A stretch of 64,000 bases of DNA, taken from Escherichia coli. GTDB lineage: Bacteria; Pseudomonadota; Gammaproteobacteria; Enterobacterales; Enterobacteriaceae. Below, one piece after another: positions 1,881 through 60,218 of the stretch; the stretch's first letter is position 1, and each line of letters starts with the position of its first letter. Under the pieces are notes generated by a model, which was given only the letters and a program-made list of their open reading frames with translations, was not told the DNA's origin and made no database searches. The DNA lies in NCBI RefSeq assembly GCF_050920415.1, contig NZ_CP169309.1; one strand, 5' to 3'. Made by a program: the position numbers and the translations under genes.

Positions 1881-3512
1881 TTAATACTCGTCCCGTCCTT
1901 CATCTTCATCCGGCTGTTCCAGCACACTGTAAGCCACCGAACAAAACAGCGAGTTCAGACGCTGCATATCTCCCAGTAAGCCTAAATGAAGCGAACTGGT
2001 TTCAATGCTCTGCACGTTTTGCTGATGCAGGCGATCGACGTGGGCGTGGGAATAGCGGCGATTAAGAATGCGAAAACGATGTTTGCTGCGGCGCAAACGA
2101 CGGGCGCTGGTAACATCGCCAGAGAAGAAAACCGACATTGCCAGTTTTAAATTACTGAGCAATTGCTCATAGAGCGCATCCAGTTCCTTCAAGCCATCAA
2201 GCGAAAATGCTCGCCTTGCAGCCAGCGATTTGTCGGCAATTTCACTCCCCATGCGCTCGACGATATCGGAGGCCTGTTCAAGGTTGAGCGACATTTCGAT
2301 GATCTCCGCCCAGCGGCGCGACTCTTCTTCTGCCAGTTCCTCTTTTGGCATTCGCGCCAGATACAGCTTAATGGCGGTATAGAGAACATTGATATCATCT
2401 GCCAACTTACGCAGCTCTTTCTCCTGCCGTGGCTCGCCGTGCATCACTTTATTCAACCCTTCCATCATCTGTTCCATGGCGTCGCCAATGCGCAGGGTTT
2501 CGCGGGCAGCGTTCGCCAGAGCAAGCGTGGGCGTATCTAGCGCGCTGACATCCAGATGTTTAGGCCGTAGCTGGGTATCCAGTTCCGGTTCATCGCGAAT
2601 AATCGTTTTGCAAAACCGTGCCATCGGGTCAACAAATGGCAGCATGACCAGGCAGCGTACAAGGTTGTAGAAGACGTGGAAATAGATCACCAGTTCCGCT
2701 TTTGGCAATGACAACTTCCCCATTGTCTCTGCCAGCAAATGAACAAACGGCAGGATAATCAGGCTACCCACCAGCTTAAACAGCAGACTACCCAGCGCGA
2801 CACGGCGGGCTGCGGCATTGGCGGCACTGTTGTTGAGCATCGCCAGCAGGCCGGAACCGAGGTTAGCACCAATCACCAGACAGAGCGCCACCGGGAAGGA
2901 GATAATGCCTGCGGCGGTCAGAGTCGCGGTCAGCAGTACAGCAGCAAGGCTGGAGTAGCTGATAATGGCGAACATCGCGCCAATCAGCGCATCCAGCAGA
3001 ATATCGCCGGTTAGCGAGGCAAAGATCACCTGAACGCCGTTTGCCTGGGTGATCGGCGTTACGGCCTGCACAATCAATTCCAGCGCCAGTAAAATCAGCC
3101 CAAGACCAATACCGACACGGCCTAGTTGCCCGGCGCGTGACTGTTTGCGGCCGAGGAAAAAAATCACGCCGATAAAAATAAGTAACGGTGACAGCCAGGA
3201 TAAGTCGAAGGTGAGAATACGCGCCATTAGCGCCGTCCCGACATCTGCACCCAGCACAATCACCAGCGCAGGCGCGAGAGCAACCAGATCCTGGGCGACA
3301 AACGAGGTCACCAGCATGGTGGTGGCATTACTGCTCTGCACCAGTGCTGTAACGCCGATCCCCGCGCAAAAGGCAAGCGGCTTCTTTTCGACGCTTCGGC
3401 TAAGAACAGTACGCAAACGCGCGCCGAAGACGCGCATTACGCCGGTTCGAACAATATGAGTCCCCCAGACCAGCAGGGCGACGGCAGAAAGCAGGTGAAG
3501 CAGCGTTAACAC
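1881..3512 (-). CDS. yjbB: Na+/phosphate cotransporter family membrane protein
   Basis: 543-aa ORF with hydrophobic N-terminal half and charged C-terminal domain; position between pepE and metH as in E. coli. Confidence 0.88.
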   Translation of the reverse strand: MLTLLHLLSAVALLVWGTHIVRTGVMRVFGARLRTVLSRSVEKKPLAFCAGIGVTALVQSSNATTMLVTSFVAQDLVALAPALVIVLGADVGTALMARILTFDLSWLSPLLIFIGVIFFLGRKQSRAGQLGRVGIGLGLILLALELIVQAVTPITQANGVQVIFASLTGDILLDALIGAMFAIISYSSLAAVLLTATLTAAGIISFPVALCLVIGANLGSGLLAMLNNSAANAAARRVALGSLLFKLVGSLIILPFVHLLAETMGKLSLPKAELVIYFHVFYNLVRCLVMLPFVDPMARFCKTIIRDEPELDTQLRPKHLDVSALDTPTLALANAARETLRIGDAMEQMMEGLNKVMHGEPRQEKELRKLADDINVLYTAIKLYLARMPKEELAEEESRRWAEIIEMSLNLEQASDIVERMGSEIADKSLAARRAFSLDGLKELDALYEQLLSNLKLAMSVFFSGDVTSARRLRRSKHRFRILNRRYSHAHVDRLHQQNVQSIETSSLHLGLLGDMQRLNSLFCSVAYSVLEQPDEDEGRDEY

Positions 3513-15871: not shown

Positions 15872-18774
<2,903 letters not shown>

Positions 18775-27056: not shown

Positions 27057-27102
27057 GAGTAAAAATGACTCGCTACACACAGCTGGCGAGTCATTTTTAC
27101 TC
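27057..27102. promoter_or_regulatory. ZraR enhancer binding sites (inverted pair)
   Basis: gagtaaaaatgactcgc (27057-27073) and its reverse complement gcgagtcatttttactc (27086-27102), between divergent zraP and zraSR. Confidence 0.7.
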
Positions 27103-27143
27103 GTTTATCATGTCATATTGCCCGTCATATCAGCGTTTCGCCG

Positions 27144-27160
27144 TTGGCACGAAAGATGCA
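27144..27160 (+). promoter_or_regulatory. Sigma-54 promoter of zraP
   Basis: tTGGCACgaaagaTGCA with correct -24/-12 spacing, about 40 bp before the zraP start. Confidence 0.7.
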
Positions 27161-27195
27161 ATACACAAAGTAAGACAACCACTGGAGGATTAACC

Positions 27196-27615
27196 ATGAA
27201 ACGGAACACGAAAATTGCCCTGGTGATGATGGCGCTTTCAGCAATGGCGATGGGATCGACATCTGCATTTGCTCACGGCGGACACGGTATGTGGCAGCAA
27301 AATGCCGCGCCTTTGACCAGCGAACAACAGACAGCGTGGCAGAAAATCCATAATGACTTTTACGCTCAAAGCAGCGCACTGCAACAGCAACTGGTGACGA
27401 AGCGTTATGAATACAATGCCCTGTTAGCCGCGAACCCACCGGATAGCAGCAAAATTAACGCGGTCGCCAAAGAGATGGAGAATTTGCGTCAGTCGTTAGA
27501 TGAGTTACGGGTGAAACGAGATATTGCGATGGCTGAAGCGGGTATTCCGCGCGGTACCGGAATGGGTTACGGCGGCTGCGGTGGTGGCGGTCATATGGGT
27601 ATGGGCCACTGGTAA
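27196..27615 (+). CDS. zraP: Periplasmic zinc-binding chaperone ZraP
   Basis: Start placed at MKRNTKIALVMMALSAMAMG (signal peptide) after RBS ggagga; track ORF is extended 47 codons upstream. Gly/His-rich C-terminus. Confidence 0.9.
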   Translation: MKRNTKIALVMMALSAMAMGSTSAFAHGGHGMWQQNAAPLTSEQQTAWQKIHNDFYAQSSALQQQLVTKRYEYNALLAANPPDSSKINAVAKEMENLRQSLDELRVKRDIAMAEAGIPRGTGMGYGGCGGGGHMGMGHW

Positions 27616-27616
27616 A

Positions 27617-28318
27617 TCAGAACGTTTTCTCGTTGGGTTGCCAGCGACAGAAATCAGAGTTTGCCACTAACAGTAATTGCGAACCTTCGGGCGCTTCCAG
27701 CCATGCCACGCTGACATCAACAGAAGAGCGGCTCTGGCGGCGCTCGATATGCGCTATCGCCTGCGAATCTAAATCAGGTTTAATGGTTTGCCCTTCGCAG
27801 GTGGTCACGGTCTGTTCCATCGCATGCCAGCGCCCCTGGCGCAGCACGACTCTCCCCTGACGTAAGGCATCGCTAATCTGGCGGATCTGATCAGCACGAT
27901 AACGGTATAAATCGATTTGGTCGTTAGAAAGCTGCTGCTTTTCCCCATCGGATTCACGTTGCATAAAGCTCAGATCGCCGCGATCGTCAAAACGCGCGCG
28001 AATGTTCACCGGCGGTTTGCTGTAAACATTGATATTGATGAGCGTGAGGTTATCGCCCTGCCAGCGATACTCTCGCGTCGTGGTATCGCCACTGCGCCAC
28101 GGGCTAAACACAGCAAGCAGATGCACATTATCGCCACTGTCTTTTCGCCAGATACGTACCGCGCCCTGATCTTCAGCAAATCCACTGGCGGTAAAGGGAG
28201 GAAGTGAAGAGTTGTGGCTACAGGCAGTGAGAAACAGAGCGCCCGCCAGCATCAATGATCGACGCCAGAAAGACAAAAGGGGTGAAACCACCCCTTCGTT
28301 AAAACTGTTCACTGCCAC
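27617..28318 (-). CDS. yjaH: Conserved lipoprotein YjaH (DUF1481)
   Basis: 233-aa ORF with lipoprotein signal (LFLTACSHN); conserved position next to hupA. Confidence 0.8.
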   Translation of the reverse strand: MAVNSFNEGVVSPLLSFWRRSLMLAGALFLTACSHNSSLPPFTASGFAEDQGAVRIWRKDSGDNVHLLAVFSPWRSGDTTTREYRWQGDNLTLININVYSKPPVNIRARFDDRGDLSFMQRESDGEKQQLSNDQIDLYRYRADQIRQISDALRQGRVVLRQGRWHAMEQTVTTCEGQTIKPDLDSQAIAHIERRQSRSSVDVSVAWLEAPEGSQLLLVANSDFCRWQPNEKTF

Positions 28319-28324
28319 GCAATC

Positions 28325-28597
28325 TTACTTAACTGCGTCTTTCAGTGCCTTGCCAGAAACAAATGCCGGCACGTTAGCTGCGGCAATTTTGATTTCTTTA
28401 CCGGTCTGCGGGTTGCGGCCAGTACGCTCAGCGCGGTGGTTCACTTTGAAGGTACCGAAACCAACCAGTTGTACAGCATCGCCTTCTTTCAGAGACTCAG
28501 TAATTGCAGCCAGAGTGGACTCCAGAGCAGCTTTAGCCTGGGTTTTGGACAGTTCTGCTTTCTCTGCAATTACATCAATCAGTTGAGTCTTGTTCAT
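28325..28597 (-). CDS. hupA: DNA-binding protein HU-alpha
   Basis: 90-aa [55 protein letters not shown]... Confidence 0.97.
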
Positions 28598-28783
28598 AAG
28601 TTATCCTTACAATGTGTTTATCGCTTGCTAAGCATCGAGTGCGACGGAAATGCCAGAATAGCACTCTCCTGCATACACGCACCGATAGCCACTTTTTTTC
28701 GCCCCCCAAATGTAGACCAGACGGGGGGCGAAAGGGAAGACTCCAGGTATGACAAATCAGGCGTTAAATCACGTTTTCTGGTC

Positions 28784-29374
28784 TTATTGCTGAAAAATTA
28801 TACCAATATTGCTCTCGCCCGCCTCACGCAGGTCTGCCCTAAGGCCTTTTATCAGCTCGATATCGCGTTCTTCGCACTCAGCTAAAAGTCGGAATATTTC
28901 CCACTGAATGTCCCACTCTTGCTCTACAGCTGGGTTTTCTTTGAGCTCTTCATCGCTCATTTCACGGCCAGCCTGAGTCATTTCCAGCATCGCCACGGTC
29001 GTGATGGAGGTCTTACTCACTTCTACCGCGTGTTCGAGCGTTTCGCCACTTAAACGCGAATGGACCAGTTCACTTAACGCCACGCAAGCATCGATTGCCG
29101 GATAAACGCCGTACAGATCGAAATCGTCGGCTGAAGGAATCGCTTCTTCAAATTTCTCCAGTTGGCTGTCGAAATTTACTTTTGCGTCTTTGACGGTCAG
29201 CGTTTCCCAGATGAGATCGAGAATACGGCGGTAAATTTGCCCATCACCAAAACCAGTTTGCTGACAGAATACGGCGTAATTAGGGTACATACGTTCGCAT
29301 AAGCAGGCCATAAAAGTGACGTGCTGCCAGCTTTCCAGGCGCTCCAGACGCAGATGAATTGGGTTTTGTAACAT
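28784..29374 (-). CDS. yjaG: Conserved protein YjaG (DUF416)
   Basis: 196-aa ORF; conserved neighbour of hupA and nfi. Confidence 0.85.
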   Translation of the reverse strand: MLQNPIHLRLERLESWQHVTFMACLCERMYPNYAVFCQQTGFGDGQIYRRILDLIWETLTVKDAKVNFDSQLEKFEEAIPSADDFDLYGVYPAIDACVALSELVHSRLSGETLEHAVEVSKTSITTVAMLEMTQAGREMSDEELKENPAVEQEWDIQWEIFRLLAECEERDIELIKGLRADLREAGESNIGIIFQQ

Positions 29375-29416
29375 GTTGAGTTCTCAAATACGGAAATTAT
29401 CCGCAGTTTACCTGAA

Positions 29417-30088
29417 TTAGGGCTGATTTGCTGTATAGCGCACGAATGCAGGACGTTCCGAGGCCACCGCGTCTGCCCAGCGCGTTGGCTCCGGCAGACG
29501 ATAGCCTTTCATGCAGCGTTGTACCCAGGCCAGCGCACTATCCATGCTGACACGATGGCCAGTTGCGATAAATAGCGGGTTACAGCGCGCTTTACTGCGC
29601 CAGACCCAGGCCAGCTGCTCGCCTTTATCCATCAACGGTGCCAGCGCGCCCGGTTCGCTGGAGAGCGGCTCGAATTTACCGCATAACCGCTTTTTCGCTA
29701 CGCCAATGGTCGGCACATCCACCAGCAAACCAAAGTGGCTGGCGACGCCAAGACGGCGAGGATGCGAGATCCCGTGACCATCGACAAACACTAAATCCGG
29801 CTTTTGCGACAGCATCTCCCACGCTGCCAGCAGCGCAGGATATTCGCGGAAGGAAAGAAAACCTGGAATGTAAGGCATGGTGGTGGCGATGCGTGCCACT
29901 TTATACTCCACCAGCTCAAGAGAGGGGTATTTCAGCAGCACCATCGCCGCTCGCGTCACGTCTCCGCCCTGCTCAAACCCGACATCGGCTCCGGCGATCA
30001 GATCCGGCGGATCTTTATCAAGTCGATCCTCACGGATCACAGAGGAAGCCAGTTCGATTTGTTGAGCGCGTAATGACGCGAGATCCAT
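29417..30088 (-). CDS. nfi: Endonuclease V
   Basis: 223-aa [41 protein letters not shown]... Confidence 0.95.
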
Positions 30089-30100
30089 AATCGCTCCTTA

Positions 30101-30244
30101 GAGCCTGGTTCAACAGGCGTAATTGTTGAAGGCAGTTTGAGGCCGGACAGCGCGGAAAAACCGGAGCGTACACGTAGTACGTGAGGATTTTGAGCACTGC
30201 CCGGCCTCAAAATGGCAAATAAAATAGCCTGATGGACCAGGCTC
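30101..30244. repeat. 144-bp palindromic MITE-like element between hemE and nfi
   Basis: About 19-bp terminal inverted repeats (gagcctggttcaacaggc / gcctgatggaccaggctc), internal inverted pair tttgaggccggacag / ctgcccggcctcaaa, central palindrome cacgtagtacgtg; flanked by TTA on both sides. Confidence 0.6.
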
Positions 30245-31309
30245 TTAGCGGTGATACTGTTCAGACAGTCGATGCACAGCCTCCACAAACACGCCAGCAT
30301 GTTCTGGCGGCACATCCTGGTGAATGCCGTGACCAAGGTTAAATACATGACCTTCGCCGTGACCGAAACCTGCAAGTATAGTCGCGACTTCTTCTTCAAT
30401 GCGGGCAGGTGGCGCGTATAGCATCGACGGATCCATATTACCCTGCAGCGCGACTTTATTGCCCACGCGGCGGCGCGCATCGGCGATATCCGTTGTCCAG
30501 TCGAGACCCAGCGCATCGCAACCCGTTTCCGCCATAGCTTCCAGCCACTGTCCACCGCCTTTGGTAAACAGGGTGACCGGTACACGGCGACCGTCGTTTT
30601 CACGCAGTAAACCATCAACTATTTTATGCATGTAATAGAGCGAGAACTGTTGATAATCGCGCCCGGTGAGCACGCCGCCCCAGGTATCGAAGATCATCAC
30701 GGCCTGAGCACCAGCTTTAATTTGCGCATTCAGATACAAAGTGACGCTTTTCGCCAGTTTATCGAGCAGAGCGTGCAGCGCCTGTGGATCGGCATACATC
30801 ATCTTTTTGATCACGGTGAACGCTTTGCTGCTGCCACCTTCCACCATATAGGTCGCCAGCGTCCACGGGCTGCCGGAAAAACCAATCAGCGGCACTTCGC
30901 CTTTCAGTTCGCGGCGAATAGTACGCACCGCGTTCATCACATAGCCCAGCTCATCTTCCGGGTCCGGAATTGGCAGTTTATCAACGTCAGCTTTGCAGGT
31001 GACTGGCGAGGTAAAACGCGGACCTTCTCCGGCTTCAAAATAGAGCCCTAACCCCATCGCGTCCGGCACGGTGAGGATATCGGAAAAGAGGATTGCCGCA
31101 TCCAGCGGATAGCGACGCAGCGGTTGCAAAGTCACTTCGCACGCCAGCTCTGCATTTTTGCACAGCGACATAAAATCGCCCGCCTGGGCGCGCGTGGCTT
31201 TATATTCCGGTAGATAGCGACCCGCCTGGCGCATCATCCATACTGGAGTGACATCAACGGGCTGGCGCAGCAGCGCCCGCAGATAACGATCGTTTTTGAG
31301 TTCGGTCAT
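30245..31309 (-). CDS. hemE: Uroporphyrinogen decarboxylase
   Basis: 354-aa [39 protein letters not shown]... Confidence 0.96.
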
Positions 31310-31348
31310 TTTGGCTGTTCCTTAGTGCGTCAGGCGGTCAGTGTATCA

Positions 31349-32122
31349 TCACTCATACTCTGCCCGACACATCGCCACCGTATCTTCTATCAGACGGCGC
31401 GCCACGGTGCCGGGCGGCGGAAGTAACGGTAAATCATCGTAGCGATACCAGTTCGCCTCGAGCAGCTCTTTCGGATCAATCACGATGTCGCCGCTGTCAT
31501 ATTCCGCCATAAATGCGGTCATCAGCGACTGGGGAAACGGCCACGGCTGGGAAGTCACGTACCGCAAGTTTTTAACTTTAATTCCGCTCTCTTCCATCAC
31601 TTCCCGCGCGACCGCCTGCTCGAGGGTTTCGCCCACTTCGACGAATCCGGCAAGTACCGTATGGACACCGTTACGATGGCGGGTATGCTGGGCGAGGAGG
31701 ATCGAATCATCGCGACGGATGGCAACAATAATGCAGGGGGCGATTTGCGGGTAGTAACGCTCACGGCAATGGCTGCACAGCATCGCCCATTCGGTTTTGC
31801 TTGGATACATTTCATGCCCGCAGTAACCACAGTATTTATGCGATCGGTAAAACTCCGCCAGTTGCACGCCACGTCCGGCCAGTTGAAACAGCCCAACATC
31901 GAGATCAATGACCTGACGTACCGACCCCATATCGTGACGCCGCTGCTGTTGTACTAACCAAACAGGTTCCCCCTGCCATTCGCCGATTTGTAGTGCGCGC
32001 TGACCCACAAGATCGAAATTTGCCGCTTCGCCATATGGCAATTCTCCCTTCGGCAACCATAATTTTTGTTCATGGCTGACGACCCACCAGCCGTGATCTA
32101 ATTTTTCAATTATACGATCCAT
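31349..32122 (-). CDS. nudC: NADH pyrophosphatase (Nudix hydrolase)
   Basis: 257-aa ORF with zinc-ribbon cysteines and Nudix box ([22 protein letters not shown]). Confidence 0.93.
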
Positions 32123-32216
32123 AGCTCTTGCACTACCTTTGCATCACTGGCATGTTTAACATGGTTTTTACATTTCTCACTGAGCAGTTTTTGAATACAA
32201 ACTTGCGGAGTCAATC

Positions 32217-32693
32217 ATGCTTAACCAGCTCGATAACCTGACGGAGCGCGTCAGAGGAAGTAACAAACTGGTTGATCGCTGGCTACATGTACGTAAGCAT
32301 CTGCTCGTGGCTTACTACAATCTGGTTGGCATTAAGCCTGGCAAAGAATCGTACATGAGGCTAAACGAAAAAGCCCTTGATGATTTTTGTCAGAGCCTGG
32401 TCGATTACTTGTCTGCCGGACATTTCAGTATTTATGAGCGCATTCTTCATAAACTGGAAGGCAATGGGCAACTCGCACGCGCCGCGAAGATTTGGCCACA
32501 ACTCGAAGCCAATACCCAACAGATTATGGATTACTACGATTCCAGCCTGGAAACCGCTATCGATCATGATAATTACCTTGAGTTTCAACAGGTTTTATCT
32601 GACATCGGCGAGGCCCTGGAAGCGCGCTTTGTGCTGGAAGATAAGCTGATTCTGCTGGTGCTTGACGCCGCCCGCGTCAAACATCCTGCTTGA
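32217..32693 (+). CDS. rsd: Regulator of sigma D (anti-sigma-70 factor Rsd)
   Basis: 158-aa ORF MLNQLDNLTERVRGSNKLVDRWLHVRKHLLVAYYNLVGIKPGKESY. Confidence 0.93.
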   Translation: MLNQLDNLTERVRGSNKLVDRWLHVRKHLLVAYYNLVGIKPGKESYMRLNEKALDDFCQSLVDYLSAGHFSIYERILHKLEGNGQLARAAKIWPQLEANTQQIMDYYDSSLETAIDHDNYLEFQQVLSDIGEALEARFVLEDKLILLVLDAARVKHPA

Positions 32694-32725
32694 GTTCTGC
32701 GCTGTTAACGCGTAATTTACATTCA

Positions 32726-32752
32726 ACGCCCCGTTTGCGGGGCTAATTTCTT
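32726..32752 (+). terminator. Intrinsic terminator downstream of rsd
   Basis: Stem gccccg-tttg-cggggc followed by taatttctt. Confidence 0.6.
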
Positions 32753-32754
32753 GT

Positions 32755-32915
32755 CGGAGTGCCTTAACTGGCTGAGACCGTTTATTCGGGATCCGCGGAA
32801 CCTGATCAGGCTAATACCTGCGAAGGGAACAAGAGTTAATCTGCTATCGCATCGCCTTTGCGGCGATCGTCTCTTGCTTCATCCGTCGTCTGACAAGCCA
32901 CGTCCTTAACTTTTT
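32755..32915 (+). promoter_or_regulatory. TPP riboswitch (THI element) in the thiC leader
   Basis: Conserved THI-box signatures: ggctgagaccg...cgggatccgcggaacctgatcaggctaatacctgcgaagggaac; sits directly upstream of thiC. Confidence 0.8.
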
Positions 32916-32922
32916 GGAATGA

Positions 32923-35448
<2,526 letters not shown>

Positions 35449-57316: not shown

Positions 57317-60218
<2,902 letters not shown>

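What the first reader, a model, noticed from the sequence alone, without database searches (positions are those of the whole stretch)
30098..30247. 144-bp palindromic MITE-like element between hemE and nfi
Between the hemE stop and the nfi start lies a 144-bp non-coding element with about 19-bp imperfect terminal inverted repeats (gagcctggttcaacaggc / gcctgatggaccaggctc), a second inverted pair (tttgaggccggacag / ctgcccggcctcaaa) and a central palindrome (cacgtagtacgtg). It is flanked on both sides by TTA (30098-30100 and 30245-30247), which would fit a duplicated target site; one copy is the hemE stop codon. It is unrelated to the REP consensus seen at 1793 and 10195. My recollection is that in K-12 nfi starts under 10 bp after hemE, so this would be a strain-specific insertion, and the long hairpin could affect hemE-nfi co-transcription.
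Basis: partly seen in the sequence, partly recalled or inferred. Interest (0 to 1): 0.55.

Follow-up and report, generated by a model that had tools for sequence, protein, structure and literature searches.

The report
RSA-type MITE inserted between hemE and nfi
The 144-bp palindrome between hemE and nfi is a real, lineage-specific insertion of a small non-coding mobile repeat (most likely the long-known enterobacterial "RSA" repeat) that landed in the hemE stop codon, so it is a tidy but fairly ordinary finding.

Summary
Window 30101-30244 is a 144-bp imperfect palindrome with 18-bp terminal inverted repeats. It is flanked by a duplicated TTA (30098-30100 and 30245-30247), and the right copy is the hemE stop codon. 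K-12 has a 9-bp hemE-nfi spacer with a single TTA, and the window differs from it by exactly 144 + 3 bp. Only 308 of 5,426 complete E. coli genomes carry the insertion.

The element belongs to a dispersed family present in 5,425 of 5,426 E. coli genomes (median 5 copies, 6 in K-12 derivatives) and across Enterobacterales, on plasmids and in a P2-like phage. Canonical copies are 143-145 bp and begin GAG...CTC. Their TAA/TAA or TTA/TTA duplications always match, and the target consensus is the palindrome A-Y-TWA-R-T. Size with duplications (150/151 bp) and K-12 copy number (6) match the "RSA" repeats of the original K-12 record.

The family shows no strand or orientation bias, so it behaves as a DNA-level non-autonomous transposon (MITE). 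No parent insertion sequence was found.

The filled allele sits on at least four diverged flank haplotypes with an almost identical element. It is closer to copies in other genera than to resident E. coli copies. This suggests import followed by spread through recombination.

Effects on hemE-nfi transcription (a large hairpin, a weak terminator-like module) are plausible but untested.

The parts
30101..30244 (.). 144-bp non-coding palindromic element (RSA-family MITE), absent from K-12 and from about 94% of E. coli genomes
   Evidence: family alignments
30098..30100 (.). Left copy of the 3-bp target-site duplication (TTA). On the mRNA strand it is the UAA that precedes the nfi Shine-Dalgarno GGAG (30094-30097).
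   Evidence: Empty versus filled site comparison; family TSD statistics
30245..30247 (-). Right copy of the TTA duplication, which is the TAA stop codon of hemE
30101..30118 (+). Left terminal inverted repeat, GAGCCTGGTTCAACAGGC. It is itself a small hairpin. Positions 30110 and 30113 vary between filled alleles.
30227..30244 (+). Right terminal inverted repeat, GCCTGATGGACCAGGCTC
30216..30243 (-). Terminator-like module on the transcribed strand. Hairpin AGCCUGGUCCAUCAGGCU (-9.7 kcal/mol) followed by AUUUUAUUUG, starting 1 nt after the hemE stop codon.
   Evidence: Pattern match only; function not shown.
30136..30211 (.). Inner long stem (30136-30150 pairs with 30197-30211) enclosing the apical region
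30148..30171 (+). 24-nt core CAGCGCGGAAAAACCGGAGCGTAC, found in family copies throughout Enterobacterales
30171..30183 (.). Apical palindrome CACGTAGTACGTG
   Evidence: pairs at columns 67-72 / 78-83 are almost invariant
30245..31309 (-). hemE (uroporphyrinogen decarboxylase), the upstream gene of the interrupted junction
29417..30088 (-). nfi (endonuclease V), the downstream gene. Its RBS and start context are preserved by the duplication.

Best explanation
The element is a non-autonomous DNA transposon (MITE). It belongs to the enterobacterial repeat family that the original K-12 annotation called RSA.

Insertion. A copy inserted at the TTA/TAA that serves as the hemE stop codon, 9 bp upstream of the nfi start, and duplicated those 3 bp. 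The hemE stop and the nfi ribosome-binding context were therefore both regenerated, and no coding sequence was damaged. The insertion chemistry is inferred to be that of a DDE transposase supplied in trans. The inference rests on three features: an 18-bp TIR beginning GAG, a 3-bp TWA duplication, and a palindromic target preference A-Y-TWA-R-T. These resemble IS5-family (IS1031/IS427-type) and PIF/Harbinger elements.

History (inferred). This copy was not copied from a resident E. coli RSA. It came from a subfamily commoner in other Enterobacterales, probably delivered on a plasmid or phage. The filled allele then moved between E. coli lineages by homologous recombination.

Consequence (inferred, untested). 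The hemE-nfi mRNA now carries a 144-nt hairpin of about -78 kcal/mol. Its first transcribed part is a weak hairpin plus U-tract. This could lower or uncouple nfi expression through partial termination or RNase processing.
For: Shown:
- Clean 147-bp difference from the empty site, with a TTA duplication. Empty alleles in other genomes span exactly 309 instead of 456 bp.
- 308 of 5,426 genomes are filled.
- The family is in 5,425 of 5,426 E. coli genomes, median 5 places, 6 in K-12 derivatives. Copies lie at cysP-ucpA, pheM-pheS, rlmL-ycbX and qseE-qseG.
- The family occurs across Enterobacterales, on 171 plasmids including conjugative IncF, and in a P2-like Yersinia phage.
- Among 61 canonical copies, 21 have TAA/TAA, 20 have TTA/TTA and none has a mixed pair. 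Lengths are mostly 143-145 bp.
- Target logo over 42 sites: A at -2 in 35 sites, C/T at -1 in 31, G/A at +3 in 33.
- 5 of 57 copies use the stop codon of a flanking ORF as target.
- No strand preference in fold energy (61 of 106, p = 0.12). No orientation bias relative to neighbouring genes (++30, --28, -+21, +-18).
- TIR pairs show compensatory changes (10 pairs).
- RSA in the K-12 record: 150/151 bp, 6 occurrences (PMC5172473). This equals 144-145 bp plus 2 x 3 bp, and 6 places.
- The element is 98.6-100% identical on flank haplotypes that differ by 3-5%. Window versus O121 RM8352 shows no mismatch over 30045-30277, against about 5% in the flanks.
- The closest relatives of this copy are in Photorhabdus and other genera (90-93%). 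Resident E. coli copies are at most 88% identical.
- Terminator-like hairpin plus U-tract.
Against: - No autonomous IS with matching ends was found. I looked in the 1.1 Mb of fetched loci, on plasmids and in phages. Mobilisation by a transposase is therefore inferred from anatomy only.
- The IS1031/IS427 properties (3-bp duplication, GAG ends) are recalled from ISfinder-type tables and were not verified here.
- The RSA identification rests on length and copy number. No published RSA sequence could be retrieved.
- The ~105-nt core is conserved well beyond what transposition ends require. Some old copies keep complementary outer stems of quite different sequence. Something besides transposition may therefore constrain the element.
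- The core-based sampling is biased, because loci were found with a 24-mer from the core.
- Outgroup junctions (E. albertii, E. fergusonii) were not examined.
Confidence: 0.85

Rival explanations
1. The 156-bp spacer is ancestral. K-12 and most E. coli lost it by precise excision or deletion between the two TTA copies.
For: A deletion between 3-bp direct repeats flanking a long palindrome is mechanistically easy. The filled allele occurs on several diverged flank haplotypes, as an old polymorphism would.
Against: About 94% of genomes, including K-12, O157, UPEC and other backgrounds, are empty. The element is 98.6-100% identical between alleles whose flanks differ by 3-5%, so it is younger than the flanks. 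It belongs to a different subfamily from all resident E. coli copies.
Confidence: 0.04
2. The same TTA was hit several times independently (an insertion hot spot), rather than once followed by recombination.
For: The element sits on at least 4 flank haplotypes. The tract shared between the window and O121 is only 233 bp. The family has a defined target preference.
Against: The hemE-nfi site matches the target consensus poorly at -2 and +4. No E. coli genome lacking the filled site holds a copy more than 90% identical that could act as donor (identity bands). Independent events would need the same foreign donor each time, always in the same orientation.
Confidence: 0.12
3. The element is primarily a functional RNA (cis-regulatory hairpin, attenuator or sRNA) kept by selection, not a selfish repeat.
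For: - The ~105-nt core is highly conserved across genera.
- An A/G with T/C pair of core positions co-varies (alignment columns 58 and 92).
- Some TIR-less copies keep complementary outer stems of unrelated sequence (L096, L101, L121, L039).
- A terminator-like module is present.
Against: - There is no orientation bias relative to transcription and no strand preference in folding.
- Copies also lie between divergent and convergent genes.
- No Rfam family reaches its threshold; the best hit is sX9 at 31.7 bits against a gathering score of 44.
- Complementarity of palindrome arms can be maintained at the DNA level by hairpin-templated correction.
- Presence/absence polymorphism with target duplication is transposon behaviour.
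Confidence: 0.08
4. It is a chance palindrome, or a member of the REP/BIME, ERIC or YPAL families.
For: Those are the common enterobacterial intergenic palindromes.
Against: Fold z-scores are -7.65 to -9.3. More than 23,000 related places exist in E. coli genomes. The REP sequences in the window are unrelated. The RU-2/YPAL and RU-3 sequences printed in PMC2759123 are unrelated. ERIC is 127 bp, not 144.
Confidence: 0.01

Closest known systems
RSA repeats of E. coli K-12 (original U00096 annotation; Bachellier & Hofnung 1996 note that 'BEE95' elements are RSA sequences)
   Same: Length of 150/151 bp equals 144-145 bp plus the two 3-bp duplications. There are six occurrences in K-12 (PMC5172473 Table 1). 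The repeats are intergenic, palindromic and enterobacterial.
   Different: I could not retrieve an RSA sequence or its coordinates, so the equation rests on size and copy number. The hemE-nfi copy is not one of the K-12 six, and it belongs to a different sequence subfamily (GGAAAAACC / ATTTTGAG).
ERIC / IRU (127-bp enterobacterial MITE-like repeat)
   Same: An intergenic imperfect palindrome of Enterobacterales with TIRs and presence/absence polymorphism. Its transcripts fold into long hairpins that can affect neighbouring mRNA.
   Different: Unrelated sequence. 127 bp rather than 144 bp. TA termini and duplication (PMC2229807 Table 1) rather than TWA.
Correia/NEMIS elements of Neisseria
   Same: MITEs of 100-160 bp that insert between co-transcribed genes. 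Their hairpin RNA and internal signals alter expression (PMC2229807, PMC3184786).
   Different: Different phylum-level host range, TA duplication and an IHF site. For Correia elements the functional effects have been shown experimentally; here nothing has been shown.
IS5-family subgroups IS1031/IS427 and eukaryotic PIF/Harbinger with their Tourist MITEs
   Same: 3-bp TWA (TTA/TAA) target duplication, palindromic target, and ends starting GAG. The properties of these families are recalled from memory.
   Different: No transposase gene with matching ends was found. The relationship is an inference from anatomy.
YPAL / RU-2 (Yersinia) and RU-3 (E. coli)
   Same: Small palindromic enterobacterial repeats with filled and empty sites.
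   Different: The sequences printed in PMC2759123 are unrelated. YPAL has internal repeats and 3-26-bp duplications.

Membership tests
MITE (non-autonomous DNA transposon) | Terminal inverted repeats | tested here: met
   18-bp TIRs, 16/18 complementary in the window and 17/18 in the commoner allele. They are conserved across 61 canonical copies.
MITE (non-autonomous DNA transposon) | Target-site duplication, shown by comparing filled and empty sites | tested here: met
   K-12 has one TTA and the window has two, flanking 144 bp. Among the 61 canonical copies, 41 have matched duplications (21 TAA/TAA, 20 TTA/TTA) and none mixes TAA with TTA.
MITE (non-autonomous DNA transposon) | Small, non-coding, multiple dispersed copies | tested here: met
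   144 bp. Only spurious ORFs cross it. Median 5 copies per E. coli genome, and many genera carry the family.
MITE (non-autonomous DNA transposon) | An autonomous partner IS with the same ends | tested here: inconclusive
   None was found in the fetched loci, plasmids or phages. Whole genomes rich in near-identical copies (Kosakonia oryziphila, Photorhabdus) could not be scanned.
RSA repeat family of E. coli | About 150-bp unit present six times in K-12 | tested here: met
   RSA is listed as 150/151 bp x 6. This family has 6 places in K-12 derivatives, and 144-145 bp plus 6 bp of duplication gives 150/151 bp.
RSA repeat family of E. coli | Sequence identity to the published RSA consensus, or coincidence with the annotated coordinates | not testable with these tools
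   The papers and the old record are not held. NC_000913.3 carries no repeat feature at cysP-ucpA.
IS5-family / PIF-Harbinger-derived element | 3-bp TWA duplication at a palindromic target | tested here: met
   TWA in 42 of 42 sites with matched duplications, and the consensus A-Y-TWA-R-T.
IS5-family / PIF-Harbinger-derived element | TIRs matching those of a DDE transposase-encoding IS of that family | not tested
   No ISfinder access. The GAG-end and 3-bp duplication properties of IS1031 are recalled from memory.
REP / BIME | 35-40-bp GC-rich REP consensus (GCCGGATG... / ...CATCCGGC) | tested here: not met
   The element lacks it. True REPs at 1793 and 10195 look different.
Intrinsic terminator | GC-rich hairpin directly followed by a U-tract on the transcribed strand | tested here: inconclusive
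   A pattern match lies at 30243-30216 on the minus strand. The stem has 6-7 bp, folds at -9.7 kcal/mol and is followed by AUUUUAUUUG. Against shuffles it is weak (z -1.4). Activity was not measured.
Known structured RNA family (Rfam) | Score at or above the gathering threshold | tested here: not met
   The best hit is sX9 at 31.7 bits against a gathering score of 44.

The most novel reading that the evidence does not exclude
RSA elements would be a still-mobile, horizontally transferred MITE family of Enterobacterales with a PIF/Harbinger-like A-Y-TWA-R-T target. Their ~105-nt core would be conserved across genera because it has a function of its own, such as a host-factor or transposase-recruiting site or an RNA module. 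The hemE-nfi copy, imported from another genus and spread by recombination through about 6% of E. coli, would measurably attenuate endonuclease V expression.
Probability: 0.15. Interest if true: 0.5.

Novelty: new member of a known kind. Interest (0 to 1): 0.3.

Why it matters
For this locus the finding matters little. It is a neutral-looking insertion that preserves both genes, and it is useful mainly as a lineage marker. It is also a natural experiment on translational and transcriptional coupling of hemE and nfi.

For the family, the analysis gives RSA, a repeat that has been named but hardly characterised, a clear transposon anatomy: TIRs, a TWA duplication and a palindromic target. It also shows that RSA travels on plasmids and phages, and that stop codons are recurrent, harmless landing sites. 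If a matching transposase were found, RSA would be a bacterial counterpart of Tourist-type MITEs.

Tried and rejected
- Rfam scan of 29000-31500: nothing above threshold.
- Literature search for an RSA sequence: the key papers are not held. Only a table with RSA length and copy number was found.
- YPAL/RU-2, RU-3 and ERIC: rejected by sequence or length.
- Oriented RNA gene: rejected, because there is no strand or orientation bias.
- 4-bp (TWAG) or 2-bp (TA) duplication: rejected, because the base after the right-hand TWA varies and the TAA/TTA pairs always match.
- Parent IS hunt. TIR-like motifs away from cores in all loci were only further MITE copies. The partial plasmid matches were elements truncated by IS26 or by an IS3-family element.
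- Linkage of the 30093 polymorphism to the filled state: rejected, because empty O157 and UPEC alleles share the same base.
- TIR-less copies as a conserved ancestral gene: rejected. They too are dispersed in unrelated intergenic sites, and only some keep complementary stems.

Full report
**1. Observation**

The genes lie on the minus strand: hemE at 30245-31309 and nfi at 29417-30088. Between them the sequence reads ...cat aatcgctcc TTA gagcctggttcaacaggc ... gcctgatggaccaggctc TTA gcggtg....

The repeat finder recovers both the outer inverted pair and the inner pair. The region folds far better than shuffles:
- RNA, minus strand: -78.4 kcal/mol, z -8.7.
- RNA, plus strand: -83 kcal/mol, z -9.3.
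- DNA: -44.1 kcal/mol, z -7.65.

The TIRs are 18 bp.

**2. Empty versus filled site**

In K-12 MG1655, hemE ends at 4198780 and nfi starts at 4198790. In window orientation the junction is ccat aatcactcc TTA gcggtgat. The window therefore differs by exactly 144 bp plus a second TTA.

On the mRNA strand, K-12 reads CGC UAA GGAGUGAUU AUG. The window reads CGC UAA [element] UAA GGAGCGAUU AUG. The duplication regenerates both the hemE stop and the nfi Shine-Dalgarno context.

A 456-bp junction query finds 308 of 5,426 complete E. coli genomes with the filled state. The rest match in two pieces spanning 309 bp, which is 456 minus 147. A stricter 199-bp query gives the same 308 genomes.

**3. A repeat family**

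The 156-bp spacer matches 23,152 places in 5,425 of 5,426 E. coli genomes. The median is 5 per genome, with 6 in K-12 derivatives. Other loci are cysP-ucpA, pheM-pheS, rlmL-ycbX and qseE-qseG, and they align over the whole element.

An invariant 24-mer from the core was used to scan one genome per species. Hits came from Yersinia, Photorhabdus, Pectobacterium, Dickeya, Erwinia, Edwardsiella, Rahnella, Serratia, Citrobacter, Salmonella arizonae and diarizonae, Klebsiella, Kosakonia, Enterobacter and others.

The family is also on 171 plasmids, including conjugative IncF plasmids of Citrobacter and Klebsiella. It also sits between gpM and gpL of a P2-like Yersinia phage.

**4. Anatomy of the family**

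The consensus is TWA | GAGCCTATCCCAgTAGGCGTAATTGTTGCAG ... core ... GGCAAATAAAATAGCCTAATGGGATAGGCTC | TWA.

- Of 61 canonical copies, 21 have TAA on both sides and 20 have TTA on both sides. None mixes the two. This is what a duplication predicts, and it is not what an extension of the inverted repeat would predict.
- Lengths are mostly 143-145 bp. Longer variants of 159-191 bp carry an extra apical hairpin.
- The reconstructed targets (42 sites) give a palindromic consensus A-Y-TWA-R-T: A at -2 in 35 sites, C/T at -1 in 31, G/A at +3 in 33, T at +4 in 23.
- In 5 of 57 copies the duplicated triplet is the stop codon of a flanking ORF, as it is here.
- TIR pairs show compensatory substitutions (10 pairs).

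**5. DNA element or RNA gene?**

Across 106 copies, neither strand folds systematically better as RNA (61 of 106, p = 0.12). Orientation relative to neighbouring genes is random: ++30, --28, divergent 21, convergent 18. Nothing in Rfam reaches its threshold. This argues for a DNA-level mobile element.

Two observations remain only partly explained.
- The ~105-nt core is very conserved across genera. The sampling was core-based and is therefore biased.
- About thirty copies lack the canonical TIRs. Of the 20 whose outer stems could be scored, nine beat every shuffle, and four of these (L096, L101, L121, L039) have unrelated sequence; others have lost complementarity. They too are scattered in unrelated intergenic sites.

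Hairpin-templated correction of quasi-palindromes is a sufficient DNA-level explanation for the second point (inference).

**6. Name**

The sequences of YPAL/RU-2 and RU-3 printed in PMC2759123 are unrelated, and ERIC is 127 bp.

PMC5172473 tabulates the repeats annotated in the K-12 GenBank record. RSA is listed at 150/151 bp with 6 occurrences. The present family has 6 places in K-12 derivatives. Its 144-145-bp units plus two 3-bp duplications give 150/151 bp. I therefore identify it as RSA. This rests on size and copy number only, because no RSA sequence could be retrieved.

**7. History of this copy**

The window's nfi and hemE differ from K-12, O121 RM8352, JNEC-KY177 and MOD1-EC7003 by 3-5%. 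Only one complete genome (MFDS1022581) is at least 99% identical over the 456-bp junction.

Even so, the element is identical to that of O121 RM8352. There is no mismatch over 30045-30277, against about one per 20 bp in the flanks. It differs at only two TIR positions (30110 and 30113) from the commoner allele.

A table of variable sites shows the filled state on at least four flank haplotypes. The O121 flanks are K-12-like.

No E. coli genome without the filled site has a copy more than 90% identical. This copy carries the GGAAAAACC/ATTTTGAG variant typical of Photorhabdus and other genera (90-93% identity). All resident E. coli copies carry GGAGAAACC/ATTTCGAG (at most 88% identity).

The most economical reading is import of a foreign subfamily member, one insertion, and then spread of the filled allele by homologous recombination (inference). 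Recurrent insertion and an old polymorphism are less likely but are not excluded.

**8. Likely consequences**

Transcription from hemE enters the element at its right end. The first 30 nt form a 6-7-bp hairpin (-9.7 kcal/mol) followed by AUUUUAUUUG. The complete element forms a 144-nt hairpin whose base extends to pair CGCU (the end of hemE) with AGCG (part of GGAGCG).

Partial termination, RNase III or RNase E processing, or reduced nfi translation initiation are all plausible. None was tested, and the small hairpin is weak relative to shuffles.

**9. Mobiliser**

A 3-bp TWA duplication, a palindromic target and GAG ends are, from memory, properties of IS5-family subgroups (IS1031, IS427) and of PIF/Harbinger elements with their Tourist MITEs. 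No such IS was found next to any copy, nor among partial matches. This step is inference.

**10. Verdict**

This is a real, well-defined insertion of a known but poorly characterised enterobacterial repeat. Novelty is modest: a new member and insertion site of a known kind, together with a clearer description of the family's transposon-like anatomy.

Noticed in passing
window 29417-31309 (nfi, hemE) and flanks 27089-33244: The window's haplotype here is unusual. It is about 3-5% divergent from K-12, O121 RM8352, JNEC-KY177 and Escherichia sp. MOD1-EC7003. Only one of 5,426 complete genomes (MFDS1022581, CP169399) is at least 99% identical over the 456-bp junction.
   Followed up: partly
L130 (E. 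coli 98210, CP173528) 2501-3390: An IS200C copy has inserted inside the hemE-nfi element, after GGCAAATAAA in its A/T-rich right arm. This splits the palindrome.
   Followed up: partly
L132 (Klebsiella pCol440I-type 7.8-kb plasmids) 1544-1640: A half element is followed directly by an IS3-family-like end (TGACCTGCTCCCC...) and an ORF starting MKKRFSDEQ. The element was evidently cut by an IS insertion.
   Followed up: partly
L131 (Citrobacter werkmanii plasmid LR822054) 3001-3031, compared with L138: The plasmid copy that lies between an RND efflux permease gene and an acyltransferase gene (L138) is truncated by IS26 in L131, leaving only the right TIR.
   Followed up: partly
L137 (Yersinia phage vB_YenM_42.18) 2501-2620: A family copy (core without canonical TIRs) lies between the gpM and gpL genes of a P2-like phage and is annotated as a 30-aa hypothetical protein.
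   Followed up: no
L115/L116 (labelled Chryseobacterium sp. 18061) and L067 (Methylobacterium mesophilicum, 234-bp contig): Assemblies labelled as non-enterobacterial hold this enterobacterial repeat. L115 has the same flanking genes as Citrobacter sp. 18056 (L079). This suggests mislabelling or contamination.
   Followed up: partly
Family copies L009, L012, L013, L016, L018, L024, L031, L045, L086, L094: These are longer variants, up to about 190 bp. They carry one or two extra GC-rich hairpins (for example GGCCGCTCTAAAGAGCG...) inserted after GTACGTGAGGAT in the apical region.
   Followed up: no
Alignment A3, columns 58 and 92 (window 30157 and 30191): Two core positions co-vary almost perfectly across 47 copies: A with T, or G with C. 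They can be drawn as a base pair in a helix RAAA(A)CC / GG-UUUY. The pattern also marks two subfamilies.
   Followed up: partly
L081-L086 (Kosakonia oryziphila REICA_142): Six or more nearly identical copies share private substitutions (GCCGGTGGTTTGG ... CCAAACCAGC). This suggests recent amplification in that genome, which makes it a good place to look for the transposase.
   Followed up: no
window 17285-17302 and 58728-58745: An identical 18-mer lies about 41.4 kb apart; it appeared as a weak TIR-pattern hit. The spacing fits two rRNA operons (rrnB/rrnE-like spacing, from memory). It is unrelated to the element.
   Followed up: no
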